The notes below the pieces were generated by a model that was given only the letters and a program-made list of their open reading frames with translations, did not search any database and was not told where the DNA came from. Below are positions 3,120 through 47,087 of a stretch of 64,000 bases of DNA, one piece after another. Made by a program: the position numbers and the translations under genes. The stretch spans positions 1,920,001-1,984,000 of the forward strand of contig CP000071.1 of NCBI GenBank assembly GCA_000002445.1, in the 5' to 3' direction. Position 1 is the first letter of the stretch. Each line of letters opens with the position of its first letter. The DNA is from Trypanosoma brucei. Taxonomy: Eukaryota.

Positions 3120-3150
<31 letters not shown>

Positions 3151-13276: not shown

Positions 13277-13771
13277 TTAGTAATGATAGCCACTAGATGA
13301 TGATCCCATGCCTGTTTTGGTGTTCCCAAGCCGCTGCATATCACACACAGCCCGCAGCACCTCTTCCCTCGAAGTTTCCAATACCATTCCGCCCATCACC
13401 ATTTCCATCAGAAGTAACTGCACCTTGTCAGAATGAAATATGAGATCAAGCTCGCACACATTTTCAAAGGTACGATCAAGTACTTCCACGAAAACCTGAA
13501 TGAGGTCTAATATCGCCAACTGAGACTCGCTACTATCAACAACAAATACAAAACAGAGCGTAGCATAGTGTCGGTACACAACGCGAGTGTCGGGTGTTGG
13601 CCACTCGCGGAAGTTGTCGACAAAGTTGCACAAGTCGGCACCACGACGGGAAATCAGGGAATGAACACGCTGCACCAGCTCCTGCTGCACACTAAGTGGA
13701 ATCTCCTTCTCATACACATTCAGGAGCCGGATCTTCCCGACCATATTAATTATTATAACAGCCTTAATCAT
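13277..13771 (-). CDS. Adaptor protein complex sigma (small) subunit; closest to AP-3 sigma.
   Basis: 'MIKAVIIINMVGKIRL...IYRHYATLCFVFVVDSSESQLAILDLIQVFVEVLDRTFENVCELDLIFHSDKVQLLLMEMVMGGMVLETS'. From memory this lines up almost residue-for-residue with clathrin-adaptor sigma chains, AP-3 sigma pattern. The track start at 13831 is GTG; the first ATG is at 13771. Confidence 0.85.
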   Translation of the reverse strand: MIKAVIIINMVGKIRLLNVYEKEIPLSVQQELVQRVHSLISRRGADLCNFVDNFREWPTPDTRVVYRHYATLCFVFVVDSSESQLAILDLIQVFVEVLDRTFENVCELDLIFHSDKVQLLLMEMVMGGMVLETSREEVLRAVCDMQRLGNTKTGMGSSSSGYHY

Positions 13772-14608
13772 TGTTGAAATATGTATTCCCCCTCCTTTTC
13801 CTCCTCCCTCGATGCAAGTTGATGGCGACACAACCTTGCACTGTCACTAATTTTGGGGATTTGAAGTGTCCCTTGCTACGGGGGCACAACAAACACAAGA
13901 CGATGTACACCTAAATTATTGTACGCCATGAATGAAACGACAAGAATTAAGCAAGCGCGCAAAAATGAAAGAAAAGTAGTAGACTCACCCAAAAGCGAAC
14001 GCATAAAACAACACGTACGCACATAAATTTGTTCATGTTTAGTTGTTGGTGGACACACGCAATGATGTGGAGAGAAGAAACACCATTCAGAGTGCTACAC
14101 ACACACACAACGCGCTGAAACACATGCACGCCCCGCACAGAGAAAACCAGGAAGGAACCGTATTTGGACTGGAAAAAAAAGGGAAAAAGAGGCAGTGTCT
14201 CACGTTGCGCGAGGTCACTCAGTGGCAAGGCAGTTGGCACAAATGTCCTCCACCTCGTAACTCTCACAGTAAAAAACAAACATAATAGACGCAAACAAAC
14301 ACATAAAAATTATGGCTGAGCGAGAGTAAGTAACAAGTTTCATAGAAAAATACAAGAACTCAACGAGTGTTAGTGAGTTTGTGGAGAAATCAAACATGAA
14401 TCCAGGTACTCGCCTGTATTCCTGGACGGCAACAACAAAAGCCCCAAGAGAAACCCATCCAATAAGACATCCACCAGAACCTGCGCCAGTGCAGCGGTGC
14501 GTAAGGGCAATCACGTAATGGTGTTTTATTTTATTAAAACATCTTCAGAATTCAGCGGTAACGAGTTATTACGTTCTTCTGCCTTGCACACCCACAATTC
14601 AAATGAAA

Positions 14609-14629
14609 ACACACACACACACACACACA
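14609..14629. repeat. (CA)10 microsatellite in the intergenic region between the AP-sigma and RecQ genes.
   Basis: Direct read of the sequence. Confidence 0.9.
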
Positions 14630-14720
14630 TCGTTGGGTTACAACCGCAACGATTCTGCACACCCGCCTGCTAAAAAAAGTGACTTCTGATCTTGGAAGGA
14701 TAAGGCTATGAACTGGCATC

Positions 14721-19367: not shown

Positions 19368-21149
19368 AGGACAAAACACTAAAAAATAAGTAATACACAA
19401 ACTTTATACAACGACACAATACCAACCACAACCTCAAAATAAACTTGCGTATCGCTGAGAGGCGGAGTGATGTGAGCGCTGAGGCGCAAATATATAGAAA
19501 GAGGGTTAAAAAATCCCTTTCCCACAGGTTCACTGACTCCCCTCTCCAGCCAATGTACTCTTTTTTCTTTTCTGTACCCCTTCCCTAATTATGTCGTAAG
19601 GGTTGCCTACACACACACGGGTAAACAGACAGGTGATTACAAGATGGGTAAGGGTGAGAAACGAAGTTCAAATATAAACGCGTCGACGGCGGGGCACCTA
19701 ACACAAGGGCAGTATTGAAGATAATCAATGAATTCTGTGGACAGATGGAACGCAGGAAAAAAAATAAAACCAAGACATATGTAGACTGCTGCCACTGTAG
19801 GCAGGACTCTTCCTCTCCCTCTCTGTACACATTCTCTCCCATTACCCCCTACCGCTTTCCTTTTCACATACAGACACGCTTGTGAGGCGCAAAACACAAT
19901 TAGAAGAAAGGAACGGATTTACACATACACACGTAATGATCATCACCTCAGCTTAGCTGAACTCCCCGCACCCTCCAGTAAAGAATCCGAAAAATGCGTA
20001 TTTTTATCGTACCTCGAATATAACGATTGCGTTATGACCAGTAGCGATAACATCAACAACACGGAGGTCCCAGTCACCGGCAGCTCTTTTGGTAATAACA
20101 GGGAAAGAAAACACAACAAATAAATAAATAAAGTACGAACAAGAAGAATAGCATTTCCCTTTCTTCCAGCGGCTTATGGGCATCAGGAGAGGAAAGACAA
20201 TGGAAACTCCCCCAATGAAAGATGGCGGAAGCGTTGCACACACACAATCGTAAACGGGCATATACTCCTCCGTGTCTGAAACAGAAAGAACGACAAACAG
20301 ACAAGTAAAGCGATGTTATTAAGCCTACCACCGCGACAGCAAGCAGAATATATATATATATATATGAAATAGATAGACCGGTACGCCCACAGAGACAAAT
20401 AAAATTACGCCCACACACCTATTGACGGTAAAGCAACACTATAGTGATGTAATTAATGTTTACAAACCGACGTCTACGTACTAGGGAACAAATTTGATGA
20501 CAATAAAAGGTGTGTACCTCAATGGAAATGAAAAAAAAATAAGTAAAAGCACATATTTGCCGCGTAACGGAAACTGAATCATCTCGACCACATGCCTTCG
20601 CGCCTCTTTCTTTGCATTCGCATGAAACGAGAGAAAGGTTCACAAACATGTTGAATTAACTTTAGGGGAAAGAACGAAAAAATGTACAGACAAATAGGTG
20701 GTCGGTACACCCTCTCAGACATCCCTTCACACACGTGAACAGGTGCGAAGAGGCGTGACGACGACGGTAAACAAAAATAACACTGCACAGGGATCTAACT
20801 CAGGGGAAACGGAAGAATCATATTAGTGATCACAAAAAAAAATATCTTTCCCATTTTTTAGAGAAGCGAAGGCGCACAATGGTGAATGCCCGCCGAACGT
20901 AACCCACGGTGAGAATACCCTAAAGCGAATCCAGGAATACTCAAGGATATATAGACAGAGAAAGAGAAGCACAGAGACGTCTTTTTTTTTTTTTCACTCC
21001 TTGCAAACCCTTCAGTATCCGCTTCCCTCCTCAGATTTTCCTCCCCACAATCCTCTTGCACCTCCCATTGGGTGCAGGCATACAAATGCACAATGAAAAG
21101 AGGGATGAATTTTCCCAACCTTTTGTTCCGCTTCCTCACGTTTGGATCA

Positions 21150-22793
21150 TTAAGAAGCCTCCGGCGAGGTCTTGGCACTACCCCAAACACAAGAACCACG
21201 GAGCATGACATAAATCCCGACCGCAAACATCAGACTTCCAAGGAGAAACCCGACGGAAAGCATGAAGACACCCGGCGTTATATCTTCACAGTCCGGCATG
21301 GCAGTTAGCGCAATGTCGAGCATAAAATTACATTCCAGCAGCGGTCGACCTATTGAAAGTGCAACACTGACGTTACGCGACCGTGCAGCCACACGTACGA
21401 CTTCGATAGAGACGTTCTTTGCCCTGCCCTCCGTACAATTGGCCGCACACTCCACTACCGTGCAAGAATTTCCGGGAGTAGGGCATGAACCAACGAAGGC
21501 CTTCACCCGTGTGTCCTCCAGTACTGTTGCTGTGATGCCAAAGTTTGGACACTCATCGGATGAGGTGATATTCTTTCCACAAGTCAGAACCTTCACGGGA
21601 AAAGTACCACCCACATTCCTAGCTGCCGCATGACTTACAAACCCACTTGCTATGAAAGAAGCAGGGGCGTCAGGGGATATGTCGCTAGATCGCGTGTTCG
21701 GCTTACCGTTTCTGTCTTTGAGGTAACCAGAAGGCACATAACCATCATAAGATACACTTGATCCCGAAAAACGACTCATACTTGGGCCACGCATATCCAG
21801 ATTATCACAGTTATCAAGCAAATAATTGCAAGCCTCCCTACAAATGCCAATCTCCGCGTCTGTCACTTTCTTGTTAATAGCATCAGGGCGAAACTTGCTA
21901 TTGCATAATGGGATTCCGTACCACTGGATAATGCCAGGCTTTCGCTCACGGTGAAGTGCAATCTCGCCACACACAGATGAAGAAGCATAGCTCAACAGGA
22001 ACAAAACAGCACCGCCAACTGAAAAAACAAGCCCGAAAACGAAATATGCACAAGCGAAGCATTCGGGCACTATCAAAGGACCTCGGCGACAGCAAGCAAG
22101 AATAACCATCGGAGCCATCAACGCAATACATACGGAACCCACCGCATAAGAAACAACAGGTAACAACTTAATATAATCTCCCGCTCTACCTCTCAACATT
22201 TCAACAACACGAACGGCGTTTTCCGATATATCATAGAAAAAGCTCACATCAACACCATCAGCGTATGGCTCTCTATTTCCAGAGGTCCAGTTAGACGCAA
22301 AATCAATAACTTTTTCCGCAGTGCAGTTCACAACATTCAACGGATTCATCAATGTTACATCGAGAAAATAATTTGAGGTTGCCCACAACTGCTTCACCCC
22401 AAAGAACACAAATGCAGCAACACCAAAAGCCCATATTAAAGCAAACATAATCCACATCCAAAGGCAGCAACGTTGTTCCTTACCTCCGTCCTTAGAGGAA
22501 GGCTTGCAACGGGAGGAACACAGGCATGTAAGAAAGCAAGATATGGGGAAAGCAATTAACACAGCCACGAAAAGGAAAGCACAGAGAGCAGGCATTGCTA
22601 ACATACGCCACTGCGCTAAGATACGGTCGGTATCCATAATGCACGTAAGAGGGTCATTTCGAGCACTGGGCCCATCCCAGACATTGTCACAGTGAAGATT
22701 TGGAAACTTGGAGTTTCCGCATTGCGTAACTGTTAACAACAGCACCAATAACACTGCAGCATAGAAAGAGCTGCCAGTGGTAACGGAGGACAT
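21150..22793 (-). CDS. Array copy A, 547 aa: signal peptide plus 5-TM (pentaspan) Cys-rich membrane glycoprotein. It is the most divergent paralog.
   Basis: ATG at 22791-22793. N-terminal 44 aa 'MSSVTTGSSFYAAVLLVLLLTVTQCGNSKFPNLHCDNVWDGPSA' is identical to copies B-D. Hydrophobic helices lie at ~aa 65-90, 108-132, ~205-228, ~235-262 and the C-terminal 'FMLSVGFLLGSLMFAVGIYVML'. Conserved motifs: 'CLCSSRCKPSSKDGGKEQRCCLWMW' and 'ALSIGRPLLECNF'. Several N-x-S/T sequons. Confidence 0.8.
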   Translation of the reverse strand: MSSVTTGSSFYAAVLLVLLLTVTQCGNSKFPNLHCDNVWDGPSARNDPLTCIMDTDRILAQWRMLAMPALCAFLFVAVLIAFPISCFLTCLCSSRCKPSSKDGGKEQRCCLWMWIMFALIWAFGVAAFVFFGVKQLWATSNYFLDVTLMNPLNVVNCTAEKVIDFASNWTSGNREPYADGVDVSFFYDISENAVRVVEMLRGRAGDYIKLLPVVSYAVGSVCIALMAPMVILACCRRGPLIVPECFACAYFVFGLVFSVGGAVLFLLSYASSSVCGEIALHRERKPGIIQWYGIPLCNSKFRPDAINKKVTDAEIGICREACNYLLDNCDNLDMRGPSMSRFSGSSVSYDGYVPSGYLKDRNGKPNTRSSDISPDAPASFIASGFVSHAAARNVGGTFPVKVLTCGKNITSSDECPNFGITATVLEDTRVKAFVGSCPTPGNSCTVVECAANCTEGRAKNVSIEVVRVAARSRNVSVALSIGRPLLECNFMLDIALTAMPDCEDITPGVFMLSVGFLLGSLMFAVGIYVMLRGSCVWGSAKTSPEAS

Positions 22794-23350
22794 TGTTTCA
22801 CGTGCAAGTATATTACTTATACCTTTTTGTCTTCATTCCAACAACATAGGAGGAAAGCAAAAGTGATATAAAGTAAAGTGGGAATGTTGGAGACAACAAA
22901 TACAGGTATGTATGTATTCATAAACATGTGCATATATTCACAATAAAATACCGGTGTAGTAATTTAGCCAAGGCACAAGCAAATACTAGCAGTAACTCCT
23001 CGTTGATATAATCATCAGGAGACACATGCGTATAAAAAAACCACACGCAAATCATATGGAATTGCAAGTAGTGCCAATAAGGAGCGACAGCGGTAAGGCG
23101 CCTGAGCATAACCACATATTTCATTACACCCAAACTTCTAGAAGGGAAATTATCCTCCTACGAGCTGGGCGATGACTACATGCCGGCTTAACACCAACCC
23201 AAGTAGAAACCTCCACATACACACACACACACACAAAGAGGGAAAACAAACCTGCACTGAACATCGTGTTGACATGTGGTAACAGCGACACACTTAGGGT
23301 GCCGGATGGGAAAAACACATCCCCGGATATAGATATATTTAAAAAAGAGA
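22794..23350 (-). repeat. Conserved ~550 bp upstream block of the array unit (copy A). It is presumed to hold the 5'UTR, the polypyrimidine/trans-splice acceptor region and the distal 3'-processing region.
   Basis: Near-identical to 25432-25990, 28136-28690 and 30765-30954. The mRNA strand is pyrimidine-rich 60-110 nt upstream of the ATG. It contains a shared (CA)8-10. Confidence 0.7.
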
Positions 23351-23646
23351 AATGAGGACATCACTTTTCGACAAGTCACATAATCTAAGGGTTGACAGTC
23401 CGTATCTTCTTCTGAGAGGAGCTTTTTTTTCCTTTTATTCCATATTGACAGGGAAAGTAAAAACATATCGATGTATTTACATGAAATGTCTCACCTTACA
23501 CAGACAAAGTATGATGACGACACGGACAGAAACTACTAATAAAGCAATAAAAATCAAATATATAACATGTAAACTCGGGAAAGTACACACAACAAGGATC
23601 GGAGTATTCCAAGGCATCCCATATAAAATAAACACATTCACTACCC

Positions 23647-25431
23647 TCATTCTCGAACGTATTCCTTATTCTCCCTCAAATCCCCTTCATCTTTTAGTTT
23701 GTTGCAACCTTCTGGATCACTCCAAATACAGGAACCACGAAGTAGTATATAGATGGACAGCGCAAACATCATACCACCCAAGAAAAGGGCAGCCGAAAGC
23801 ATCATCGCACTACCAAAGAAATCTCCACAGTGGGGCAGAGCTGTCAGCAAAGTATCAAATATGAAGTTGCATTCCAGTAGCGGGCGACCAATGGAAAGTG
23901 CAATACTTACATTAGTTGCTAATCCCGCAACGGTGACAAGTGTACCCGCCATACCTTTAGCTTCATCTCCCCTACATTTCTCTGCGCATTCTTGCAGAGT
24001 GCACGCCCTGCCATCACCTGGGCAAATCAGATAACCCCCCTTAACCTTTGTGTCACTAATGACAGCGGCAGTAAAACCAAAACTCGAACATTCAGTGGCA
24101 TCCTGAAGACCTTTTCCACATTTGAGCGGTTTATTGTTAGGACCAAGCGGCAGGCCTAGAAACTGAGAAGTTGTAGCGGGTATTAAATTCCCGCTGCCAG
24201 GAAAACGGGACTGCAACGCGTCGGCCCCAGCTGCACCAAGAGTAACATTGGCTTTATTACTGACGTTGCTGGTAACTCCGGGTATGTTGGGTCCAAATTT
24301 AGCTTCCAACTCCTTTTCGTTTTCAAAGTCCTCTGGTTTCATGTCGGGTGGGAGAGCCTTTGGGTCCAATCCGGGTGGGAGATTCCTTCCAAGAAGGGCA
24401 GCCACTCCTCCCACACCAGTTATATCACCGAGTTGTGATGTGTCATTATCACAGTACTCGAGAATTTTTGTACATGCCTTCTGCGACACATCCTTCTGGG
24501 CATTGAAAATCATCTCGTTAAGATTCGCAAAATTAAACTTTTCTTGACACATGGGTAAAGCATACAGCTGAATCAATCCCGGGCTCCGATCGTAGTGCAA
24601 AGCAACTTCACCACAGATAGTGCCGATGACGTACGACAACAGAATCATGAGAAAACCAAGCGCCATAAACAGGATTGCAAATAGCCAATATACACACGAG
24701 AGCAACCGCGGTAACCACTTGCTACAGCAGCGGAAGTAAGCGAACACAAACATGGGAACCATCACTAAAATCGCAAAAGTTCCGATGCAGAAGGAAACAG
24801 TGGGGATCCAGCGCATATACTGCTTGTAAGCTGCCCTCCCCTCATCAATATAACCCCTAGCAAGACCAAGAACACTATCTATCGTTTCGCGACTAATTCC
24901 CTCCTGTAACGACTGATTTTTACCCCAGTCAAACGCTAATTTAAGAATCTTATCTGCAGTACAGTCTAGGAAATTTATTGGATTTTCCACCGTTTTCATT
25001 ATGAGGGTAGTGGCAGCTGTCTCAAGCTGCCGGGCTCCAAAGAACACAAATGCAGCAACACCAAAAGCCCATATTGAAGCAAACATAATCCACATCCAAA
25101 GGCAGCAACGTTGTTCCTTACCTCCGTCCTTAGAGGAAGACTTGCAGCGGGAGGAACACAGGCATGTAAAGAACCAAGATATGGGGAAAGCAACTAATGT
25201 TGCCACGAGTAATAGAGCAGCCAAGGCTGGAACAAAAATATCCTCCCAATGAGATAAGATACGTTTCTTGTCCTTAATGCACGTAAGAGGGTCATTTTGA
25301 GCACTGGGCCCATCCCAGACATTGTCACAGTGAAGATTTGGAAACTTGGAATTTCCGCATTGCGTAACTGTTAACAACAGCACCAATAACACTGCAGCAT
25401 AGGAAGAGCTGCCAGTGGTAACGGAGGACAT
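23647..25431 (-). CDS. Array copy B, 594 aa: pentaspan Cys-rich membrane glycoprotein paralog.
   Basis: ATG at 25429-25431. Same N-terminus and TM pattern as copies A, C and D. Large second extracellular loop (~280 aa) with a conserved Cys framework. Confidence 0.85.
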   Translation of the reverse strand: MSSVTTGSSSYAAVLLVLLLTVTQCGNSKFPNLHCDNVWDGPSAQNDPLTCIKDKKRILSHWEDIFVPALAALLLVATLVAFPISWFFTCLCSSRCKSSSKDGGKEQRCCLWMWIMFASIWAFGVAAFVFFGARQLETAATTLIMKTVENPINFLDCTADKILKLAFDWGKNQSLQEGISRETIDSVLGLARGYIDEGRAAYKQYMRWIPTVSFCIGTFAILVMVPMFVFAYFRCCSKWLPRLLSCVYWLFAILFMALGFLMILLSYVIGTICGEVALHYDRSPGLIQLYALPMCQEKFNFANLNEMIFNAQKDVSQKACTKILEYCDNDTSQLGDITGVGGVAALLGRNLPPGLDPKALPPDMKPEDFENEKELEAKFGPNIPGVTSNVSNKANVTLGAAGADALQSRFPGSGNLIPATTSQFLGLPLGPNNKPLKCGKGLQDATECSSFGFTAAVISDTKVKGGYLICPGDGRACTLQECAEKCRGDEAKGMAGTLVTVAGLATNVSIALSIGRPLLECNFIFDTLLTALPHCGDFFGSAMMLSAALFLGGMMFALSIYILLRGSCIWSDPEGCNKLKDEGDLRENKEYVRE

Positions 25432-25990
25432 TGTTTCACGTGCAAGTATATTACTTATACCTTTTTGTCTTCATTCCAACAACATAGGAGGAAAGCAAAA
25501 GTGATATAAAGTAAAGTGGGAATGTTGGAGACAACAAATACAGGTATGTATGTATGTATTCATAAACATGTGCATATATTCACAATAAAATACCGGTGTA
25601 GTAATTTAGCCAAGGCACAAGCAAATACTAGCAGTAACTCCTCGTTGATATAATCATCAGGAGACACATGCGTATAAAAAAACCACACGCAAATCATATG
25701 GAATTGCAAGTAGTGCCAATAAGGAGCGACAGCGGTAAGGCGCCTGAGCATAACCACATATTTCATTAAACCCAAACTTCTAGAAGGGAAATTATCCTCC
25801 TACGAGCTGGGCGATGACTACATGCCGGCTTAACACCAACCCAAGTAGAAACCTCCACATACACACACACACACACACAAAGATGGAAAACAAACCTGCA
25901 CTGAACATCGTGTTGACATGTGGTAACAGCGACACACTTACAATGCGGTATGGAATAAAGGTATTGCCGAATATTTTTTAAAAAAAGAGA
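25432..25990 (-). repeat. Conserved upstream block of the array unit (copy B).
   Basis: Sequence identity to 22794-23350 and 28136-28690. Confidence 0.7.
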
Positions 25991-26287
25991 AAGCAGTAAA
26001 CAGGGAGCAATTATTTTATACCGCAACGCAATCGAAAAGTAGAAGGTTAACTCTTTCTTCTAGTTGAATTTTAGTCCTTTTTTTCCCGACACACTAATAG
26101 GTCGAGAAAAAAATAATTACGTCCGTATTTACATGAAATGTCTCACCTCACAATCGTCCCGTGAATGCGACGCAAGCAAAAACTATTAATAAAGCAATAA
26201 AAATTAAATATATGACGTGTAAACTCGGGAAAGTATACACAACCCGAATAACAGTACTCCGGGGTGTCCCATATAAAACAAACACGT

Positions 26288-28135
26288 TTACTGTTCTTCT
26301 TTCTTCCCATACCCTTCACAGTCATTGGTCTCTTCATGATTATTATTATTTTTTTTTCCGCAATCCTCTTCATCCTCATCCTCATACTCCTCTTCTTCGT
26401 CTTCATCTTGACTTTTCAAATTAGTCCAAATACAGGAACCACGAAGTAGTATATAGATGGACAGCGCAAACATCATACCACCCAGGAAAAATCCAACAGC
26501 AAGCATCATCGTGCTGCCAAAAATGTCGGCACAGTTAGGCAAAGCTGTCAGTACGGTATCAAATATGAAGTTGCATTCCAGTAGCGGACGACCAATGGAA
26601 AGTGCAATACTTACATTAGTTGCTAATCCTGCAATAGTAACAAGTTTATTTGCCATTTCCTTAGCTTCATTCCTTCCACAGCTAGTCGCACATTCTTGCA
26701 GAGTGCATGCCCTGCCAACCTCTGGGCAGACGAAAAGCTTCCCTTTAACCTTTGTGTCACTGATGACAGCAGCAGTAAAACCAAAACTCGAACATTCAGT
26801 GGCATTCTTAAGATCCTTTCCACATTTCAGGTACTTCTCAGATGAATGAGGTAATGCACGGTAAAGCTCAGAGAGTTTAGCGTGTGCTAGGTCCCCATTG
26901 CCTTCACGAGGGTACCGCAACCCACCAGTCCCAGCTGCAACGAGAGGGAAATCACGCCGGGTGTTAGGATTACCAGCGACTCCGGGTATGTTGGGTCCAA
27001 ATTTAGCTTCCAATTCTCTTTCGTTTTCAAAGTCCTCTGGTTTCAAGTTAGCTGGTAGAGATTTTGGGTCCAATCCGGGTGGGAGATTCCTTCCAAGAAG
27101 GGCAGCCACTCCTCCCACACCAGTTATATCACCGAGTTCAGATGCATCTCCATCACAGTACTCGAGAATTTGTTCACATGCCTTCTGCGACACATCCTTC
27201 TGGGCATTGAAAACCATCTCGTTAAGATTGGCAAAATTAAACTTTTCTTGACACATGGGTAAAGCATACCATTGAATCAATCCCGGGCTCCGATCGTAGT
27301 GCAAAGCAATTTCACCACAGATGGATCCAACAGCGTACGACAACAGAATCATGAGAAAACCAAGCGCCATAAACAGGATTGCAAATAGCCAATAAACACA
27401 CGAGAGCAACCGCGGTAACCACTTGCTACAGCAGTGAAAGTAAGCGAACACAAACATGGGAACGATCAAGGAAACCGCAAAAGTTCCGATGCAGAAAGAA
27501 ACAGTGGGAACCCAATGTACGTATTGTTCATAGGTTGCCCTCCCCTCCCGAACATAACCCCTAGCAAGACCAACAACACTATCTATCGTTTCGCGACTAA
27601 TTCCATTCTGTAACGGCCGCTTTGCACTCCAGTCATACGCTAAATCAAGAATCTTATCTGCAGTACAGTCTAGGAAATTTATTGGATTTTCCACCGTTTT
27701 CATTATGAGGGTAGTGGCAGCTGTCTCAAGCTGCCGGGCTCCAAAGAACACAAATGCAGCAACACCAAAAGCCCATATTAAAGCAAACATAATCCACATC
27801 CAAAGGCAGCAACGTTGTTCCTTACCTCCGTCCTTAGAGGAAGGCTTGCAACGGGAGGAACACAGGCATGTAAGAAAGCAAGATATGGGGAAAGCAACTA
27901 ATGTTGCCACGATAATGAAAGCAGCAGCAACCGGAAATGCAATCTTCTGCCATTGGCCTTTCATGAGATCTGCATCTTTCAGACACTTCATAATTTCATT
28001 TTGAGCACTGGGCCCATCCCAGACATTGTCACAGTGAAGATTTGGAAACTTGGAGTTTCCGCATTGCGTAACTGTTAACAACAGCACCAATAACACTGCA
28101 GCATAGAAAGAGCTGCCAGTGGTAACGGAGGACAT
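26288..28135 (-). CDS. Array copy C, 615 aa: pentaspan Cys-rich membrane glycoprotein paralog with an acidic C-terminal tail.
   Basis: ATG at 28133-28135. TM helices lie at ~66-90, 111-133, 211-233, 244-270 and 555-580. Tail: 'QDEDEEEEYEDEDEED'. Confidence 0.85.
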   Translation of the reverse strand: MSSVTTGSSFYAAVLLVLLLTVTQCGNSKFPNLHCDNVWDGPSAQNEIMKCLKDADLMKGQWQKIAFPVAAAFIIVATLVAFPISCFLTCLCSSRCKPSSKDGGKEQRCCLWMWIMFALIWAFGVAAFVFFGARQLETAATTLIMKTVENPINFLDCTADKILDLAYDWSAKRPLQNGISRETIDSVVGLARGYVREGRATYEQYVHWVPTVSFCIGTFAVSLIVPMFVFAYFHCCSKWLPRLLSCVYWLFAILFMALGFLMILLSYAVGSICGEIALHYDRSPGLIQWYALPMCQEKFNFANLNEMVFNAQKDVSQKACEQILEYCDGDASELGDITGVGGVAALLGRNLPPGLDPKSLPANLKPEDFENERELEAKFGPNIPGVAGNPNTRRDFPLVAAGTGGLRYPREGNGDLAHAKLSELYRALPHSSEKYLKCGKDLKNATECSSFGFTAAVISDTKVKGKLFVCPEVGRACTLQECATSCGRNEAKEMANKLVTIAGLATNVSIALSIGRPLLECNFIFDTVLTALPNCADIFGSTMMLAVGFFLGGMMFALSIYILLRGSCIWTNLKSQDEDEEEEYEDEDEEDCGKKNNNNHEETNDCEGYGKKEEQ

Positions 28136-28690
28136 TGTTTCACGTGCAAGTATATTACTTATACCTTTTTGTCTTCATTCCAACAACATAGGAGGAAAGC
28201 AAAAGTGATATAAAGTAAAGTGGGAATGTTGGAGACAACAAATACAGGTATGTATGTATTCATAAACATGTGCATATATTCACAATAAAATACCGGTGTA
28301 GTAATTTAGCCAAGGCACAAGCAAATACTAGCAGTAACTCCTCGTTGATATAATCATCAGGAGACACATGCGTATAAAAAAACCACACGCAAATCATATG
28401 GAATTGCAAGTAGTGCCAATAAGGAGCGACAGCGGTAAGGCGCCTGAGCATAACCACATATTTCATTACACCCAAACTTCTAGAAGGGAAATTATCCTCC
28501 TACGAGCTGGGCGATGACTACATGCCGGCTTAACACCAACCCAAGTAGAAACCTCCACATACACACACACACACACAAAGAGGGAAAACAAACCTGCACT
28601 GAACATCGTGTTGACATGTGGTAACAGCGACACACTTAGGGTGCCAGATGGGAAAAACACATCCCCGGATATAGATATATTTCTTAAAAG
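28136..28690 (-). repeat. Conserved upstream block of the array unit (copy C).
   Basis: Sequence identity to 22794-23350 and 25432-25990. Confidence 0.7.
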
Positions 28691-28979
28691 AGAAAGCAGT
28701 AAACAAGGAATTTTTTTCCACAGCTAATTTAGGGAGAAAAAGTCAATGTTTTCTTCCGACCGAAACATATATTCCCTTTTTACCCATACTGACAGGGAAA
28801 GTAAACACATATCTCTGTATTTACATGAAATGTCTCACCTCACAATCGTCCCGTGAATGCGACGCAAGCAAAAACTATTAATAAAGCAATAAAAATTAAA
28901 TATGTAACGTGTAAACTCGGGAAAGTACACACAACCCGAATAACAGTACTCCGGGGTGTCCCCCATCCAGTACACGCAA

Positions 28980-30764
28980 TTATTTCCTTGCAGGGCTTTT
29001 GTCAGACTCCCTTTTGTTCTCAGAGTCCTTCTCTTCATCTTCATCCCATCTTTTCAGATCACTCCAAACACAAGATCCACGAAGTAGTATATAGATGGAC
29101 AGCGCAAACATCATACCACCCAAGAAAAATCCAAGACCAAGCATCATCGTTCCCCAATACAAACCGTCACAGTTAGGCAGAGCAGTCAGTACGGTATCAA
29201 ATATGAAGTTGCATTCCAACAGCGGGCGACCAATCGAAAGCCCAATGCTTACATTAACTGCGAGTTGAGCAGCACCCACAAGTGTTTTTGCAATGTTTTG
29301 TGCGTCCGGAACTTTACACTTATCTGCACAAACTTGCAGACTGCAGGGTCTGCCACCATCCGGACAAACCATATAACCCCCCTTAACTTTTGTTCCACTG
29401 ATGACCGCGGCGGTGAAACCAAAGGTTGAACATTCTTCTTTGCTTCCAACCCCCTGGCCACATGTCAGCATCTTATTGCTAGGGCCAAATGGCAGTTGGG
29501 GGAACTGAGTCGCCTTGGCACCAATTACATCCCTCATGTTCCCCGGTAGTGAACCATCAGGGGGAACGCTGCCTTCATAGCGGCGTGGAATCTTCTCCTT
29601 ATCATTAACTCCTGGGATATGTGACTCCAATAAGCTGTCCAAACCCTTTTCGTCTTCAAAGTCCTCTGGTTTCACTCCAGGTGGGAGAGCCTTTGGGTCC
29701 AATCCGGGTGGGAGATTCCTTCCAAGAAGAGCAGCCAGCCCTCCTGTGCCGGTTTGATCACCGAGTTGTGATGTGTCATTATCACAGTACTTGAGAATTT
29801 CTTCACATGCCTTCTGCGACACATCCTTCTGGGCATCTAAAATCATTTTGTTAAGATTCGCAAAATTAAACTTTTCTTCACACATGGGTAAAGCATACCA
29901 TTGAATCAATCCCGGGCTCCGATCGTAGTGCAAAGTTATTTCCCCGCAGACGAGACCGAAGGCATACGCCAACAATAGAATTACTAAACCAAGCGCCGTA
30001 AACAGGATTGCAAATAGCCAATATACACACGAGAGCAACCGCGGTAACCACTTGCTACAGCAGCGGAAGTAAGCAAACATAAACATGGGAACCATCACTA
30101 AGACCGCAAAAGCTCCGATGCAGAAAGAAACAGTGGGAACCCAATGTACGTACTGATCGTAATACCCTTTCGCCATGGTAATGTAACTCCTCGCCATGTC
30201 AACGGTGCTATCTATTGTTTCCCGGCCAATTCCCTCCCGCAGTGGCTCTCCTGTCCTCCAGTCATACGCTAAACCAAGAATCTTATCCGCGGTACACCTG
30301 AGGGAATTCAGCGGTCTGTTAACCCGGTGAGATAGCAAATCGTCCAACGTTATCTTAAGCTGCTGTGCTCCAAATAAAACGAAGACAGCAACACCAAAAG
30401 CCCATATAAAAGCAAACGCAATCCACATCCAAAGGCAGCAACGTTGTTTCCTACCTCTGTCCTTAGAGGAAGGCTTGCAACAAGAGGAACACAGGCATGT
30501 GGAGAAAAAGGTCAGTGGAAAAATGACCACGATTAAGGCGAGAAGTAAACCAGCCAAAACTGGTAACAAAATATCCTCCCAATGAGATAAGATACGTGTC
30601 TTGTCCTTAATGCACGTAAGAGGGTCATTTTGAGCACTGCGTGTAGTCCACAATTTCTGGCAGCCGAGATTTGGAAACTTGGAATTTCCGCATTGCGTAA
30701 CTGTTAACAGCAGCACCAATAACACTGCAGCATAGGAAGAGCTGCCAGTGGTAACGGAGGACAT
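28980..30764 (-). CDS. Array copy D, 594 aa: pentaspan Cys-rich membrane glycoprotein paralog.
   Basis: ATG at 30762-30764. Same architecture as copies A-C. The N-terminal ectodomain segment differs ('NLGCQKLWTTRSAQ'). Confidence 0.85.
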   Translation of the reverse strand: MSSVTTGSSSYAAVLLVLLLTVTQCGNSKFPNLGCQKLWTTRSAQNDPLTCIKDKTRILSHWEDILLPVLAGLLLALIVVIFPLTFFSTCLCSSCCKPSSKDRGRKQRCCLWMWIAFAFIWAFGVAVFVLFGAQQLKITLDDLLSHRVNRPLNSLRCTADKILGLAYDWRTGEPLREGIGRETIDSTVDMARSYITMAKGYYDQYVHWVPTVSFCIGAFAVLVMVPMFMFAYFRCCSKWLPRLLSCVYWLFAILFTALGLVILLLAYAFGLVCGEITLHYDRSPGLIQWYALPMCEEKFNFANLNKMILDAQKDVSQKACEEILKYCDNDTSQLGDQTGTGGLAALLGRNLPPGLDPKALPPGVKPEDFEDEKGLDSLLESHIPGVNDKEKIPRRYEGSVPPDGSLPGNMRDVIGAKATQFPQLPFGPSNKMLTCGQGVGSKEECSTFGFTAAVISGTKVKGGYMVCPDGGRPCSLQVCADKCKVPDAQNIAKTLVGAAQLAVNVSIGLSIGRPLLECNFIFDTVLTALPNCDGLYWGTMMLGLGFFLGGMMFALSIYILLRGSCVWSDLKRWDEDEEKDSENKRESDKSPARK

Positions 30765-30954
30765 TGTTTCACGTGCAAGTATATTACTTATACCTTTTTG
30801 TCTTCATTCCAACAACATAGGAGGAAAGCAAAAGTGATATAAAGTAAAGTGAGAATGTTGGAGACAACAAATACAGGTATGTATGTATTCATAAACATGT
30901 GCATATATTCAATAAAATACCGGTGTAGCAATTTAGCCAAGGCACAAGCAAATG
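30765..30954 (-). repeat. Truncated conserved upstream block of the array unit (copy D). It ends at the stop codon of the Mus81-like gene.
   Basis: Identical to the other copies for ~190 bp. It then diverges exactly where the upstream gene's CDS ends (30955). Confidence 0.7.
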
Positions 30955-32799
30955 CTAGCAGTAACTCCTCGTCAATATAAATTTTGTTAGACACAAATAT
31001 ACTTCTTTTTGTGGCTTCGTCAGGCGATGTATATCTGGGTCAGCGTCGCAGGCATCTACTCCTTGGTATTTCAGCCGGCGCCACAGCCCCAACAGAGAAC
31101 CATACTTCGACGCGAGCTGAATTGCCAGAGGTGCAGAGCAACCCCTTATACACATAAGCATGCGGGGAAATGTAGTCCGAGCCTGGATATCCTTTCTTAT
31201 TTTGTTGATGTATTGTAGGCATTCAGTGCAGTTAGTTACCAACGTTTCTGGGCATTGTTCCATTTTAGTTTTGCACAGTATTGAGCCTACTGACTTCCCA
31301 AGGCTACGGAGAAAGGTGGCTGTTTCAGACAAATGACGTGTCCACACGACACGGAAACGTGGAAGAGACGCAAGCGAGGCACAAGCAGAAAGAACCCGCC
31401 GTCGCTCCTCAACCGTGATGGACTCCATTGTTCCCTCCACAACCCACACAACAGAACGGAAAGGGGACGATGACAGCAGTTGCCGCTGCTCGTAGTAACG
31501 TGAAGAGGTAATGCTGGCACAAAGATCCTTTACTGTTTTCCTTTCCACCACAAGGAATGAGATTTTTTGCGTCTGTCCGTACATTGCCCCTTCACGAAGA
31601 ACAGTGCAACCGGCAGCGTTGCGGCATTGATAATCCGGCACGTTCGCCGAGTTTGCTGAGCACCCAACATTAGGTGAATTGATTCCTATCATAAAGTCTC
31701 CGCACGGGAGGGTGCATGAAACACTAGGCGCGCCGGCGCGGGAACATACTTCGATTAGGTTTTCGTGTGCACCCTTGATGCGTTCGCGGTTATCAACGAG
31801 AAGGTGCCAAGAATAGTTGTTGGAGCAACCCTCTTCTTTAGGCGTCTCGTTTTCATCAGCATCTATATCAGTAGTATTTGTCGGCATGCTGGGTGTTGAA
31901 TGCACCAGCTTCCTTTCCCTCTGCTGGGAGGCAACAAACTCCTTTGGAGTTCCTAGAAGTCGGCCCTGTGGTTCTGACCCTCCTTCCGCCAACGAAGTAG
32001 TTGGTGCAATGTCGGTGTTGGGTGAACGGAACAACGTCCTGAGGCGTTGACCGTGTCGGATCATATCGCTTACTGTTGAAGTGTGCCCTGCAGAGCTCAT
32101 AGATCTGGAGCACCTTTCCGAATCCTCCCTGAGGTGGGACAACACCTCAGCTTGAGAATCAGGAACATATCGTGGTTTCGGTGAAGTCTCCGCAAGCTTA
32201 GAGGCGCCGTGTTTACGGAGCCTCGCGATGAGATGCACTTTGGTTCCACTACCCAAGAGGCCTTTGGACAAACATCGATCGCGCAGCTCCCTCCAACTGA
32301 GTTTTTCCTCCGGTAGTGGCTCACCACTTTGACAACCGGTGGTTGAAGAATGCATTAAACTCGTACCCGCTTCCCCACGAGAGTTATGGAGCTGGTCAAA
32401 GTGCCAGTCAGAATTGCCACTCCACACTGCCGGCTGGCCAGAGAGTAAAGGGGGACCACCTTCTGTGCGCTGCATTTTAAAACAGCGGAATGGCGAGAAG
32501 GGGAAGCTAACGGACCTCCTCAGCGCAGCAACAGAAACCTCGCCGTCTCGTGCAAGCATTTCATCATTCGTAGAGTTGTCATCGCCCAAAACTTCTCGAC
32601 CGTGGCGGGGGGCCAACATTGCGCAGAACGCTTCCGTCGCACGAACGGCCTCTGGACAACTGCCATGAAGCTGCGTCCCAGCGGCGCCACTGCTAATTGG
32701 CAGTGGATATCGCCTCAACGCGGCGCAAAATTCTGGAAAGCGCTGAGGCCATCTACGCTCAATATACGAGGCAATTCTTTCGTTATGGCTGTTCGGCAT
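30955..32799 (-). CDS. ERCC4-family structure-specific endonuclease with a SAP-like motif and C-terminal HhH region; Mus81-like.
   Basis: ERCC4 catalytic motifs 'LLVDNRERIKG' and 'FLVVERKTVKDLCASI'. SAP-like 'LSWRELRDRCLSKGLLGSGTKVHLIARLRKHG'. The ~614 aa size fits Mus81 rather than XPF. The track start at 32829 is TTG; the first ATG is at 32799 (MPNSHNER...). Confidence 0.65.
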   Translation of the reverse strand: MPNSHNERIASYIERRWPQRFPEFCAALRRYPLPISSGAAGTQLHGSCPEAVRATEAFCAMLAPRHGREVLGDDNSTNDEMLARDGEVSVAALRRSVSFPFSPFRCFKMQRTEGGPPLLSGQPAVWSGNSDWHFDQLHNSRGEAGTSLMHSSTTGCQSGEPLPEEKLSWRELRDRCLSKGLLGSGTKVHLIARLRKHGASKLAETSPKPRYVPDSQAEVLSHLREDSERCSRSMSSAGHTSTVSDMIRHGQRLRTLFRSPNTDIAPTTSLAEGGSEPQGRLLGTPKEFVASQQRERKLVHSTPSMPTNTTDIDADENETPKEEGCSNNYSWHLLVDNRERIKGAHENLIEVCSRAGAPSVSCTLPCGDFMIGINSPNVGCSANSANVPDYQCRNAAGCTVLREGAMYGQTQKISFLVVERKTVKDLCASITSSRYYEQRQLLSSSPFRSVVWVVEGTMESITVEERRRVLSACASLASLPRFRVVWTRHLSETATFLRSLGKSVGSILCKTKMEQCPETLVTNCTECLQYINKIRKDIQARTTFPRMLMCIRGCSAPLAIQLASKYGSLLGLWRRLKYQGVDACDADPDIHRLTKPQKEVYLCLTKFILTRSYC

Positions 32800-33554
32800 T
32801 AACACATCAAAGAGCAAGTTTGCATGCAAAAGACCTTCCCGTCCACCTTATACAAAAATGGATGTTCCCGCTTTTGACTGGCCTTTGAACGACGGTCAAC
32901 GCTGGCGCCTTCCATTAGCCCGCAGAAGCGGGAAACGTTTGTGAGAATAAGAAGCAAAAAGGAATGGGATCAGTGCAATGTACAAGAGCAACAAAACGCA
33001 TGTTGGGCGGGTGAGTGAATGGACAACACAAACACGAAGAATCACCATTCACTTTTCACACACTCAGGCACACCAACGGAACAGACGTGATAGTAGATTG
33101 CTATTCGTTAGACAAAATAGGGACAGAAGAAAGGCAAAGGGGGACAAGATACGATCTCAGTGCTCTGGAAACTTGCTGATTCTCTTTTTTCTTTTCGGAC
33201 ATTTCTTTCTTTTTTTGTGCATATACCTCTCTCCACAACCAATCTTTACTGACCCATTCCCATTCGCTCCCACTTCCTTTTCTCACGTCTTCTACATTGT
33301 CCTTGGCTCCTTCACCTTCCCTCCCCTGGCTTCTGTCCCCCCCCCTACGCGTTAGGTGTGCTTAACAAGGGCTAAGTTAAAATAAAATAATGGTGATAAC
33401 AAGAAATACAAATAAACAAATAAATATATACGCTAAACGCACTTTGCCTATTTTATTACTTTTTTATTAAAAAAAAAAAAATAACTCCGTTAATTTACTT
33501 TTTGTATCCCTTTTCTTAGTTAAACACCTTAGGCTCCACCGAAAAAGAGTGAAC

Positions 33555-34067
33555 TCACACGCGTTCGCCCTTGAGACCATCCTTCCAGAAGTAGAAGGTG
33601 GGTGTCTCACCATCCCACTTGCAGAGGACAATCATGCCATTGTCGGGGTCCTCCTCATTACCCTCAGGAATGAAAAACTGATACTCATCAATTTCCTTTA
33701 TCACCTTCTTCACGAAGGCGGCGGCGTTAGTCTGGAAGGCCTTCTTTGCGCCCTCATCCTCAATTTTCTCCAATAGCTGCTTCATGTAACCACGAATGTG
33801 GGCCATGTAGGAGCCCTTGTCATAGTTCGTCTCAGTGTAGCGGTTATTGTGAACCACATCAATGACGCGCTGCTTCCCGTCGTCCACGTCACCCGCCGCA
33901 CCCTCGCCGGCATCCTCATCAGCATTAGCAGAAATACCGTAGTCCTCACCACCAATCTCAATGTAGCGGCCTTGTACGGCGTACACGATCTCGTCCAACA
34001 AATCCATTGGCTTGTCGTTGTCGCACACGACTTCGGCATTTGTTAAGATATCCCTGAAGATCTTCAT
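33555..34067 (-). CDS. TCTP1: Translationally controlled tumour protein (TCTP), the downstream of two paralogs, 170 aa.
   Basis: Full-length TCTP signature: 'MKIFRDILTNAEVVCDNDKPMDLLDEIVYAVQGRYIEIGGEDYGISANADED...IDVVHNNRYTETNYDKGSYMAHIRGYMK'. ATG at 34065-34067. Paralog numbering is inferred from gene order and remembered T. brucei annotation; it is uncertain. Confidence 0.9.
   Translation of the reverse strand: MKIFRDILTNAEVVCDNDKPMDLLDEIVYAVQGRYIEIGGEDYGISANADEDAGEGAAGDVDDGKQRVIDVVHNNRYTETNYDKGSYMAHIRGYMKQLLEKIEDEGAKKAFQTNAAAFVKKVIKEIDEYQFFIPEGNEEDPDNGMIVLCKWDGETPTFYFWKDGLKGERV

Positions 34068-46447: not shown

Positions 46448-46526
<79 letters not shown>
46448..46526. repeat. (CA)n/(TG)n microsatellite, ~39 units.
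   Basis: Perfect dinucleotide run visible at 46448-46526. Confidence 0.95.
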
Positions 46527-46528
<2 letters not shown>

Positions 46529-47087
46529 GCAAACAAACAAGAGGAACGGACGCAGGAAGGGTAGCAAGCCTGTATACAAAGAAGGTCACAAATAAAATAA
46601 GACGAAAGCATCCGGACGAGCACATAAACGAGGAGGGAAGGTCGGTCTAGGTGAAAAGTAATGATGAATGATATTTGATGGCTCCACAGCCCTACAATTA
46701 TTCAATACTGATAACGGCACCAACAAAAAAAAAATTGACCGCCTCTGTTAGCCGTCATCATACATACACCGTGTGTAGCAGAACGATAGACATTCCGCGC
46801 TATCATGACAAATACATCTCCCTTGCTCGGACACACGCCACAACAAAGAAATAGTGAAGGAATCAAATCAGTGCACCGACCCACATATTTGCAAGAAGGG
46901 TAAAGAAACAACGATGGAATGCCGACACCACAACAAATATACCCAAAACCTGCGGACAAATGAGAACGTCACGCCCATGCACATTCAACAACACATACAC
47001 AACCTATATGTGCCGAAGTGCTACCGCCAGCTGGGGCGGTGCAACCAACGACACGATTAACAAAAAGAGAAACGGGAACCATCAAAT

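What the first reader, a model, noticed from the sequence alone, without database searches (positions are those of the whole stretch)
30765..30994. Stop codon and last codons of the Mus81-like nuclease gene lie inside the array's conserved upstream block; only a 190 bp intergenic gap
The sequence 'ggcacaagcaaatgctagcagtaactcctcg' is the same element found upstream of copies A-C (there 'aaatactagc', TAT in the stop-codon frame). In copy D's unit it supplies '...LTRSYC*' and the TAG stop (complement of cta at 30955-30957) of the ERCC4-nuclease gene. Homology to the other units ends at about that point. So the duplication boundary of the array coincides with the 3' end of the nuclease gene. The nuclease's 3'UTR and copy D's splice-acceptor region must share ~190 bp, which is very compact for this genome type.
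Basis: seen in the sequence. Interest (0 to 1): 0.5.

Follow-up and report, generated by a model that had tools for sequence, protein, structure and literature searches.

The report
Nuclease gene tail copied into array spacers
In Trypanosoma brucei chromosome 8, the last 13 codons and stop codon of the MUS81 repair-nuclease gene were caught up in the repeat unit of the neighbouring four-copy membrane-protein gene array. This is an ordinary footprint of tandem duplication and gene conversion at a gene junction that was already unusually tight in the ancestor.

Summary
The window is T. brucei TREU927 chromosome 8. The 190 nt between the MUS81 stop (TAG, 30955-30957, minus strand) and the ATG of array copy D (30764), plus the last ~42 nt of the MUS81 coding sequence, recur upstream of copies A-C (218 nt, 96.8% identity, E 2e-101). 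The match is 18/18 nt through "TRSYC*", then 14/24, then nothing.

The direction implied by "supplies" is wrong. MUS81 ends at the same residue in ten other trypanosomatids (…LTEFLLAEEYC*), so the tail is ancestral and the array unit captured it. The TAG is intact in all three relics; the only nearby change is the base after the stop.

The tight junction is also ancestral: 174 nt in T. cruzi, 197 in T. rangeli, 278 in T. grayi and 294 in T. theileri. It was not caused by the array's expansion.

Mosaic identity along the units, and variants shared among copies within each subspecies, show continuing gene conversion whose upstream edge lies inside the MUS81 tail.

The gap holds a 47-nt polypyrimidine tract and only three AGs, 22-37 nt before the ATG. 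This predicts a MUS81 3'UTR of only tens of nucleotides.

The array is already described (Tb75/Fam72). Interest is low.

The parts
30955..32799 (-). MUS81 (ERCC4-family) nuclease CDS, 614 aa. It is Tb927.8.6740 by gene order (inferred) and by the name 'DNA repair protein, putative'.
   Evidence: ORF list. Pfam ERCC4 E 1.4e-19. Identical to XP_847504.1. A profile of the orthologues hits solved human MUS81 4P0P at E 2.5e-9.
30955..30996 (-). Last 13 codons plus TAG of MUS81, the part that is homologous to the array spacers. 30955-30972 is an 18/18 match; 30973-30996 is a 14/24 match.
   Evidence: The C-terminus is conserved in position in orthologues.
30765..30954 (-). 190-nt intergenic gap between the MUS81 stop and the copy D ATG. 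It must hold both the MUS81 3'UTR with its poly(A) site and copy D's polypyrimidine tract, splice acceptor and 5'UTR.
   Evidence: It is 93-100% identical to the equivalent stretch upstream of A-C.
30811..30857 (-). 47-nt polypyrimidine-tract-like stretch (pyrimidines interrupted by single purines).
   Evidence: using the definition in Kolev et al. 2010 (PMC2936537). Its function is inferred.
30787..30803 (-). The only three AG dinucleotides in the gap (G at 30802, 30794 and 30787). These are the candidate spliced-leader acceptor sites and give 5'UTRs of 37, 29 or 22 nt.
   Evidence: Identical in all four units. Use as acceptors is inferred, not mapped.
28980..30764 (-). Array copy D, 594 aa, XP_847503.1 (Tb927.8.6730 by order). 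Multi-pass membrane protein of cell-surface family Fam72 / array Tb75.
28328..28369 (-). Relic of the MUS81 tail in the spacer upstream of copy C (…TRSYC* with TAG intact).
25628..25669 (-). Relic of the MUS81 tail upstream of copy B.
22986..23027 (-). Relic of the MUS81 tail upstream of copy A.
26288..28135 (-). Array copy C (615 aa).
23647..25431 (-). Array copy B (594 aa). Absent from T. b. gambiense DAL972.
21150..22793 (-). Array copy A (547 aa). It is the most divergent body (41-45% aa identity to B-D), but its 5' end and upstream block are identical to those of B and C.

Best explanation
This is a duplication footprint kept fresh by concerted evolution.

1. In the ancestor of Trypanosoma, MUS81 was already followed at about 170-300 nt by a single membrane-protein gene (Fam72) on the same polycistronic strand.
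2. In the T. brucei lineage that gene was tandemly duplicated. The proximal breakpoint of the repeat unit fell about 42 nt inside the 3' end of MUS81. Every internal spacer therefore carries a non-functional copy of the last 13 codons and the stop.
3. Frequent short-tract gene conversion among the units has since kept a block from about -208 to about +100 relative to the ATG nearly identical in all four units, while the rest of the units diverged. This block covers the final 18 nt of the MUS81 tail, the gap with its polypyrimidine tract and AG acceptors, the 5'UTR and the signal-peptide codons. The upstream edge of this homogenised tract lies within the MUS81 tail.
4. Inferred: the block is the RNA-processing module. 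Trans-splicing of each array copy is coupled to polyadenylation of whatever lies upstream. Because the MUS81 stop lies only 153 nt before the first acceptor AG, the module unavoidably overlaps the end of the MUS81 CDS. MUS81 must then be polyadenylated within a few tens of nucleotides of its stop.
For: Shown:
- Homology of 218 nt at 96.8% (E 2e-101), plus an in-register 14/24 extension and then an abrupt loss of similarity.
- The MUS81 C-terminus and stop position are conserved in T. cruzi, T. rangeli, T. grayi, T. conorhini, T. theileri, T. melophagium, T. congolense, an unnamed Trypanosoma sequence, T. vivax (in the correct frame) and Leptomonas seymouri.
- The gene after MUS81 is the orthologue of the array gene in T. 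cruzi and T. theileri. The T. grayi and T. rangeli genes align with the family. Stop-to-ATG gaps are 174, 197, 278 and 294 nt.
- T. theileri serves as a control. It has its own 3-copy array whose shared upstream block is 165 nt long. With a 294-nt gap, that block stops 130 nt short of MUS81.
- Signatures of gene conversion: C and A are 100% identical from -300 to +130 but only 27-60% identical later in the unit. D and B are 97-100% identical at +130 to +190, where D and C are 40-67% identical. Variant sites inside the block are shared among paralogues within a subspecies and differ between subspecies. T. b. gambiense has three copies.
- Published work already classes this array (Tb75, Tb927.8.6700) as a moderately variable tandem array. 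The same study reports gene conversion as widespread in T. brucei arrays and notes that terminal flanks of arrays match the internal spacers but are curtailed (PMC1855330). A second paper gives 4 copies in T. b. brucei against 3 in T. b. gambiense (PMC2854126).

Inferred:
- Processing signals: a 47-nt polypyrimidine tract, then the only three AGs of the gap.
- The median poly(A)-to-splice-site distance is 142 nt, with half of cases between 123 and 178 nt (PMC2936537). The stop-to-first-AG distance here is 153 nt.
- A listed mRNA length of 1954 nt for Tb927.8.6740, against a 1845-nt CDS, is consistent with very short UTRs. That value is blank in the authors' 'Filtered mRNA length' column, whose meaning I could not find in the paper (PMC4285177).
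Against: - The distal breakpoint could not be found. The first ~626 nt of the spacers have no detectable match downstream of copy A, so the full duplication junction is not reconstructed.
- The 24-nt weak part (58% identity) could in principle be microhomology at the junction rather than diverged homology.
- No splice-site or poly(A)-site data for these genes could be retrieved, so the processing-module step is inference.
- The direction of individual conversion events at the MUS81 stop is unresolved (see the rival explanations).
- The T. congolense locus, the closest outgroup with an array, could not be fetched.
Confidence: 0.8

Rival explanations
1. The array block overwrote the nuclease's end. 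Conversion from the relics (A-C) into the MUS81/copy D junction ran through the stop codon. On this reading, the present last codons, stop codon and 3'UTR of T. brucei MUS81 derive from the array rather than by direct descent.
For: - The last 18 nt of the CDS are identical to the relics.
- A second T. brucei haplotype (the T. b. equiperdum assembly, and two Logan contigs from runs ERR7929162 and ERR7929163) has TAA instead of TAG. Five of its 11 differences over 1931 nt lie in the stop and the next 20 nt. That pattern looks like a short conversion patch in one of the two lineages.
- The T. brucei tail (TRSYC) differs from the genus consensus (AEEYC).
Against: - The length of the tail and its Y-C end are ancestral.
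- The Arg at -4 is shared with T. congolense and T. vivax, so the tail residues need no special origin.
- The relics themselves must originally have come from MUS81.
- Any such overwrite would be stop-to-stop and synonymous in the 18 nt, so it changes nothing in the protein.
- The TTG (MUS81) versus TCA (relic) difference at codon -6 is fixed in all three assemblies. Conversion therefore does not reach further into the CDS.
Confidence: 0.15
2. The block is identical because of purifying selection on a shared cis-regulatory or processing element, not because of gene conversion. On this reading, the overlap with the MUS81 tail reflects a functional element that spans the stop codon.
For: The block contains the polypyrimidine tract, the AG acceptors and the 5'UTR, which are functionally constrained. 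The 60 nt before the ATG are invariant across all ten sequences from three subspecies.
Against: - Selection does not explain 97-100% identity over more than 300 nt that includes synonymous sites of the signal-peptide codons.
- It does not explain the pairwise mosaic along the units.
- It does not explain variants that are shared among paralogues within a strain but differ between strains.
- The T. cruzi, T. rangeli and T. theileri gaps show no sequence similarity to the T. brucei block beyond being pyrimidine-rich.
Confidence: 0.04
3. Chance similarity or an assembly artefact of a repetitive locus.
For: The locus is repetitive, and copy number differs between assemblies.
Against: E 2e-101. The same junction and relics are present in three independent assemblies, and the MUS81 side of the junction also in two Logan contigs.
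Confidence: 0.01

Closest known systems
T. brucei tandem gene arrays evolving in concert (Jackson 2007, BMC Evol Biol 7:54; array Tb75 = Tb927.8.6700)
   Same: It is the same locus. The published pattern matches: coding bodies diverge while flanking blocks stay near-identical, gene conversion often spans start or stop codons and UTRs, and the terminal flank of an array matches the internal spacers only over a curtailed length.
   Different: In the passages I retrieved, that paper takes the curtailed match to mark the extent of the UTR. It does not mention a match running past the intergenic region into a neighbouring gene. Here the match ends about 42 nt inside the neighbour's coding sequence, because the junction is only 190 nt.
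Partial-gene relics at the boundaries of tandem or segmental duplications (general genome biology; from my own knowledge)
   Same: A fragment of an intact neighbouring gene's end is repeated with each unit. Homology ends abruptly at the breakpoint. The fragment has no coding role.
   Different: The relic's stop-proximal 18 nt are kept identical to the live gene by continuing homogenisation. The relic has not simply decayed.
Coupled trans-splicing and polyadenylation in trypanosomatids (Kolev et al. 2010, PMC2936537; earlier work by LeBowitz and by Matthews recalled from memory)
   Same: The poly(A) site of the upstream gene is set about 120-180 nt upstream of the downstream gene's splice site by the shared polypyrimidine tract. 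The gap here has that architecture.
   Different: The stop codon lies only 153 nt before the first AG. The predicted 3'UTR is therefore at the very short end of the reported 10 to ~6000 nt range. No mapping data were available to confirm this.
PGK and hexose-transporter arrays of T. brucei (chimaeric copies made by gene conversion; cited in PMC1855330)
   Same: Mosaic paralogues within a short array. Different 3' flanks are associated with stage-specific expression. Copies B-D here are listed as up in bloodstream forms (Nilsson et al. 2010, Table S2).
   Different: In those examples, as described there, no neighbouring unrelated gene is said to be involved in the conversion tract.

Membership tests
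MUS81 / ERCC4 (XPF-family) structure-specific nuclease (the upstream gene) | ERCC4 nuclease domain | tested here: met
   Pfam PF02732, E 1.4e-19, residues 345-509.
MUS81 / ERCC4 (XPF-family) structure-specific nuclease (the upstream gene) | Catalytic GDX(n)ERKXXXD signature | tested here: met
   G377, D378 … E429, R430, K431 … D435 are invariant in the 10-sequence alignment. The sequence reads CGDFMIGI … VVERKTVKDL.
MUS81 / ERCC4 (XPF-family) structure-specific nuclease (the upstream gene) | Specific similarity to solved MUS81 rather than to other XPF-family members | tested here: met
   Every nuclease hit of the profile is MUS81: human-type 4P0P, 2ZIX and 9F98 at E 2.5e-9, and 2ZIU at E 3.6e-4. 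The only other hit is a 55-aa chain of nuclear protein Hcc-1 (2DO1), matching profile positions 175-215. Orthologues are named MUS81 in UniRef.
MUS81 / ERCC4 (XPF-family) structure-specific nuclease (the upstream gene) | C-terminal tandem helix-hairpin-helix domain that includes the last residues | tested here: inconclusive
   The HMMER alignment to 4P0P stops 45 profile positions before the end, with 51 residues left in the chain. The lengths are compatible, but the tail itself is not aligned.
Concertedly evolving tandem gene array of T. brucei (sensu Jackson 2007) | Head-to-tail paralogues on one strand with alignable internal spacers | tested here: met
   Four copies with a period of about 2.63-2.70 kb. 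The spacers are 90-100% identical.
Concertedly evolving tandem gene array of T. brucei (sensu Jackson 2007) | The flank of the first copy matches the internal spacers only over a curtailed length | tested here: met
   The match runs from 30765 to about 30996 only. The remaining ~610 nt of the spacers have no counterpart upstream of D.
Concertedly evolving tandem gene array of T. brucei (sensu Jackson 2007) | Mosaic similarity or gene-conversion tracts, and paralogues more alike within than between genomes | tested here: met
   Sliding identity profile. Shared variants within subspecies. No formal GENECONV-type test was run.
Concertedly evolving tandem gene array of T. brucei (sensu Jackson 2007) | Copy-number variation by unequal exchange | tested here: met
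   4 copies in TREU927, 3 in DAL972 and 3 in the T. b. equiperdum assembly. Published as 4 versus 3 (PMC2854126).
Partial-gene relic at a duplication breakpoint | The fragment is homologous to the end of an intact adjacent gene whose end is ancestral | tested here: met
Partial-gene relic at a duplication breakpoint | The reciprocal (distal) breakpoint is identifiable in the flank of the last copy | tested here: not met
   No significant match between the spacers and the region downstream of copy A. The flank has been replaced or has diverged, so the junction cannot be fully reconstructed.
Trypanosomatid intergenic processing module (polypyrimidine tract, AG acceptor, coupled upstream poly(A) site) | Polypyrimidine tract followed by the first AG upstream of the ATG | tested here: met
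   A 47-nt tract at 30811-30857. The first AG has its G at 30802.
Trypanosomatid intergenic processing module (polypyrimidine tract, AG acceptor, coupled upstream poly(A) site) | Experimentally mapped spliced-leader addition and poly(A) sites | not testable with these tools
   The per-gene tables were not held as text or did not contain these genes. The only datum is an mRNA length of 1954 nt that is blank in the authors' filtered column.

The most novel reading that the evidence does not exclude
Gene conversion driven by the surface-protein array repeatedly rewrites the stop codon, the last few codons and the whole (roughly 20-30 nt) 3'UTR of a DNA-repair nuclease gene. The end-processing of MUS81, and possibly its expression, would then be tied to the array's shared splice module. 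The TAG/TAA polymorphism, with a cluster of five differences in 20 nt at the stop, would be a visible trace of such an event.
Probability: 0.15. Interest if true: 0.35.

Novelty: new member of a known kind. Interest (0 to 1): 0.15.

Why it matters
- The finding gives a clean, datable marker for how this array grew: the proximal breakpoint lies 42 nt inside MUS81.
- It is a worked example showing that the 'curtailed terminal flank' rule, used to guess UTR limits in trypanosome arrays, can overshoot into a neighbouring coding sequence when the junction is tight.
- It predicts an exceptionally short MUS81 3'UTR whose poly(A) site depends on the downstream gene's polypyrimidine tract. That matters for anyone tagging or knocking out Tb927.8.6740 or Tb927.8.6730. 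A C-terminal tagging cassette for MUS81 would separate copy D from its splice signals. In addition, homology arms taken from this region match three other places in the array.
- Beyond that, it is ordinary genome mechanics.

Tried and rejected
- Distal breakpoint: MAFFT and word-size-7 BLAST of the spacers against the region downstream of copy A and the whole window found nothing beyond (TG)n and low-complexity hits.
- Non-coding RNA in or around the gap: a permissive Rfam scan of 28000-33600 gave no match.
- Per-gene splice and poly(A) data: Siegel 2010 has no supplements held as text. The Kolev 2010 and Vasquez 2014 supplements lack these gene IDs. Nilsson 2010 gives only the regulation direction. 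Fadda 2014 gives one mRNA length that is blank in its filtered column.
- T. congolense locus: the protein is not on record for context look-up. The exact 614-aa TREU927 protein is also not on record.
- T. vivax: the contig ends 129 nt after a frameshifted gene call, so it was usable only for the tail.
- Logan contigs as possible transcripts: both end 23 nt after the stop. That would fit a poly(A) site 130 nt before the first AG. However, they carry no spliced leader or poly(A) run, one is chimaeric, and the library type is unknown. I did not count this as evidence.
- Alternative donor for the TAA-haplotype patch: none in the window or in the fetched loci.
- Identity of the array protein: only a sub-threshold Pfam Tweety hit and no PDB sequence match. 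I did not pursue this because it does not bear on the finding.
- The idea that the relic preserves an older MUS81 tail: by eye, the relic's codons (M C L L M I I S) are no closer to the genus consensus than the live gene's codons are.
Full report
**Identity of the window.** All large ORFs lie on the minus strand. The nuclease ORF and array copy D are identical to T. brucei brucei TREU927 proteins XP_847504.1 ("DNA repair protein, putative", which UniRef names MUS81) and XP_847503.1 ("hypothetical protein, conserved"), both on a 2.48-Mb contig. In the direction of transcription the gene order is: WD40 protein, TCTP, TCTP, MUS81, array copies D-C-B-A, RecQ helicase, AP sigma chain. The TCTP genes are Tb927.8.6750 and Tb927.8.6760 (PMC5992589). 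The array is listed in the literature as Tb927.8.6700 (array Tb75, four copies) and as Fam72. By position the nuclease is therefore Tb927.8.6740, which carries the same product name in Fadda et al. 2014.

**Checking the observation.**
- ORF 30955..32829 (minus strand) ends …LTKFILTRSYC, with TAG as the complement of 30955-30957.
- Copy D starts at 30764, so the gap is exactly 190 nt.
- Repeat family D7 places the same element upstream of A, B and C.
- On the coding strand, the four upstream regions align cleanly from the ATG back through the gap and into the nuclease CDS.
- BLAST gives 218 nt at 96.8% identity, E 2e-101, covering window 30980-30765.
- In fixed register, the 18 nt ACGAGGAGTTACTGCTAG (T R S Y C stop) are identical in all four units. 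The preceding 24 nt match at 14 positions. Only 54 of 63,976 window 24-mers match the relic that well. The next 6, 10 and 20 nt match at 2, 0 and 2 positions.
- Homology therefore ends near 30996, about 42 nt (13 codons plus the stop) inside the CDS.
- The TAG is intact in A-C. The g/a difference at 30954 is the first base after the stop.

**Which way round?** I aligned the T. brucei protein with nine Trypanosoma orthologues. Eight of them end at the homologous residue: …LTEFLLAEEYC in T. cruzi, T. rangeli, T. conorhini, T. theileri and T. melophagium; …LAEEYY in T. grayi; …LAREYS in T. congolense; and …LTEDYC in an unnamed sequence. The ninth, the T. vivax gene call, is frameshifted. The correct frame reads …LTEFLLSRHYV*, and Leptomonas seymouri reads …LTEFLLAKDYY*. 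The T. brucei C-terminus and stop position are therefore ancestral. The array unit captured the MUS81 tail, and the three spacer copies are relics.

**Is the compact junction a consequence of the array?** No.
- The gene directly after MUS81 is the orthologue of the array gene in T. cruzi and T. theileri: 32-40% identity over the N-terminal ~330 aa and 40-49% over the C-terminal ~140 aa. The T. grayi and T. rangeli genes align with the same family.
- The stop-to-ATG distances are 174 nt (T. cruzi), 197 (T. rangeli), 278 (T. grayi), 294 (T. theileri), 196 (T. b. gambiense) and 190 (T. b. brucei and the T. b. equiperdum assembly).
- L. seymouri has no such gene between MUS81 and RecQ.
- T. theileri is a useful control. 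It has its own three-copy array, and the upstream block shared by its copies is about 165 nt. With a 294-nt gap, that block stops 130 nt short of MUS81. In T. brucei a ~232-nt block cannot fit into 190 nt, so it overlaps the CDS.

**Why is the block so similar when the genes are not?** The copies differ strongly in their bodies. A is 41-45% identical in amino acids to B-D, and D is 63-66% identical to B and C. Yet the stretch from about -208 to about +100 is 93-100% identical between D and the others. The identity profile is a pairwise mosaic: C and A are 100% identical from -300 to +130 and again from +250 to +340, but 27-60% identical elsewhere. D and B are 97-100% identical at +130 to +190, where D and C are 40-67% identical. 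Variable sites inside the block are shared among paralogues within one subspecies and differ between subspecies. Examples are TTTTGC in all four TREU927 units against TTTTAC in all three T. b. equiperdum units, and the G/A at 30929. The base after the stop is C in both D and A of T. b. gambiense. This is the signature of continuing gene conversion, which has been reported as widespread in T. brucei tandem arrays (PMC1855330). Copy number also varies, with B missing in DAL972. The difference at codon -6 (TTG in MUS81, TCA in the relics) is fixed in all three assemblies. Homogenisation therefore reaches the last 18 nt of MUS81 but no further.

**Anatomy of the gap and the inferred mechanism.** On the coding strand the gap contains a 47-nt pyrimidine-rich tract at gap positions 98-144 (window 30857-30811). 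The only three AGs of the gap follow it, at positions 153, 161 and 168, giving 5'UTRs of 37, 29 or 22 nt. Published T. brucei values are: median 3'UTR 388-400 nt (range 10 to ~6000), median 5'UTR about 90-130 nt, and median poly(A)-to-splice-site distance 142 nt with half of cases between 123 and 178 nt. With 153 nt from the stop to the first AG, the MUS81 poly(A) sites are predicted within a few tens of nucleotides of the stop. This step is inference. The only supporting datum is an mRNA length of 1954 nt against a 1845-nt CDS, and that value is blank in the authors' 'Filtered mRNA length' column. In the internal spacers the same rule places the poly(A) sites of copies D, C and B around the relic. 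The homogenised block thus corresponds to one complete processing module.

**A second haplotype.** The T. b. equiperdum assembly and two Logan contigs carry TAA instead of TAG. Five of the 11 differences over 1931 nt fall at 30955, 30954, 30950, 30943 and 30936. Such a cluster suggests a short conversion patch in one lineage. This keeps open the minor rival that relic-to-MUS81 conversion has crossed the stop codon. Because any such change would be stop-to-stop, it would not alter the protein.

**What could not be done.** The distal breakpoint was not found. The T. congolense locus was not retrievable. No splice-site or poly(A)-site maps could be read. Rfam finds nothing in the region.

**Verdict.** It is explained by an ancestral, tightly spaced gene junction, a tandem-duplication breakpoint inside the last 13 codons of MUS81, and concerted evolution of the array's 5' module. 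The array and its mode of evolution are already published. As far as I could find, the relic of the MUS81 tail is an unreported detail. Novelty is small and interest is low.

Noticed in passing
window 30936-30957; L006 about 11843-11870; L009 1906-1931; L010 2383-2408: A second T. brucei haplotype has the MUS81 stop as TAA rather than TAG. Five of its 11 differences over 1931 nt are packed into the stop and the next 20 nt (30955, 30954, 30950, 30943, 30936). No alternative donor sequence was found in the window or in the fetched loci.
   Followed up: partly
L009 and L010 (Logan runs ERR7929162 and ERR7929163): Both contigs end at the position equivalent to window 30932, 23 nt after the stop. 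This could be a poly(A) site 130 nt before the first AG, or only an assembly-graph branch. The first 515 nt of L010 are an unrelated coding sequence with a coiled-coil look, joined to the MUS81 5' region at window 32824. This looks like a chimaera or an engineered locus.
   Followed up: partly
L001 (T. cruzi GCA_003177095.1, PRFC01000042.1) 341-21824: In this T. cruzi assembly a whole ~9.66-kb unit is tandemly repeated: MUS81, the Fam72 gene, a 134-aa ORF, the AP sigma chain, a 485-aa gene and TCTP. It therefore contains complete extra MUS81 copies, unlike T. brucei, where only the Fam72 gene and a 42-nt MUS81 tail are repeated.
   Followed up: no
L002 (T. theileri) 12245-19547: T. theileri has an independent three-copy array of the same gene (851, 485 and 482 aa). 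The N-termini and a 165-nt upstream block are identical among the copies. The first copy has a long internal insertion.
   Followed up: partly
window 21150-30764: Copies B-D carry an insertion of about 100 aa (roughly residues 335-430) that is absent from copy A and from the T. cruzi and T. theileri orthologues. B-D share about 610 nt of 3' spacer, whereas A has an unrelated 3' flank. Tb927.8.6710-6730, but not 6700, are listed as up in long slender bloodstream forms versus procyclic forms (Nilsson 2010, Table S2). This suggests stage control acting through the 3' spacer.
   Followed up: partly
window 28980-30764 (and copies A-C): The array protein gives a sub-threshold Pfam hit to Tweety (PF04906, E 0.0019, 17.4 bits against a cut-off of 31.8) over residues 68-133. 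A profile of nine orthologues finds nothing significant in the PDB by sequence. No structure prediction was attempted.
   Followed up: no
L008 (Leptomonas seymouri) 9100-10475: MUS81 is followed directly by the RecQ helicase gene, across a 1376-nt gap with no ORF longer than 80 aa on the coding strand. The Fam72 gene at this position is therefore either specific to Trypanosoma or lost in this lineage.
   Followed up: partly
L007 (T. vivax GCA_019425475.1) about 2500-2969: The T. vivax MUS81 gene call is frameshifted near its 3' end. The conserved C-terminal ~75 residues (…TTFPRMLMCIRGCSS…LTEFLLSRHYV*) are in another frame.
   Followed up: yes
window 1-4000: The region is very AT-rich (28-29% G+C, against about 50% elsewhere). 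It has only short low-complexity repeats and no convincing ORF, and the GC skew changes sign. It lies at the downstream end of the minus-strand gene cluster and could be a long intergenic, termination or strand-switch region.
   Followed up: no
window 46448-46538, and about 28556-28577 with the equivalent positions in the other spacers: A long (TG/CA)n microsatellite lies at 46.45-46.54 kb. A shorter (TG)n tract lies inside each array spacer, and its length differs by one repeat in the spacer upstream of copy B.
   Followed up: no
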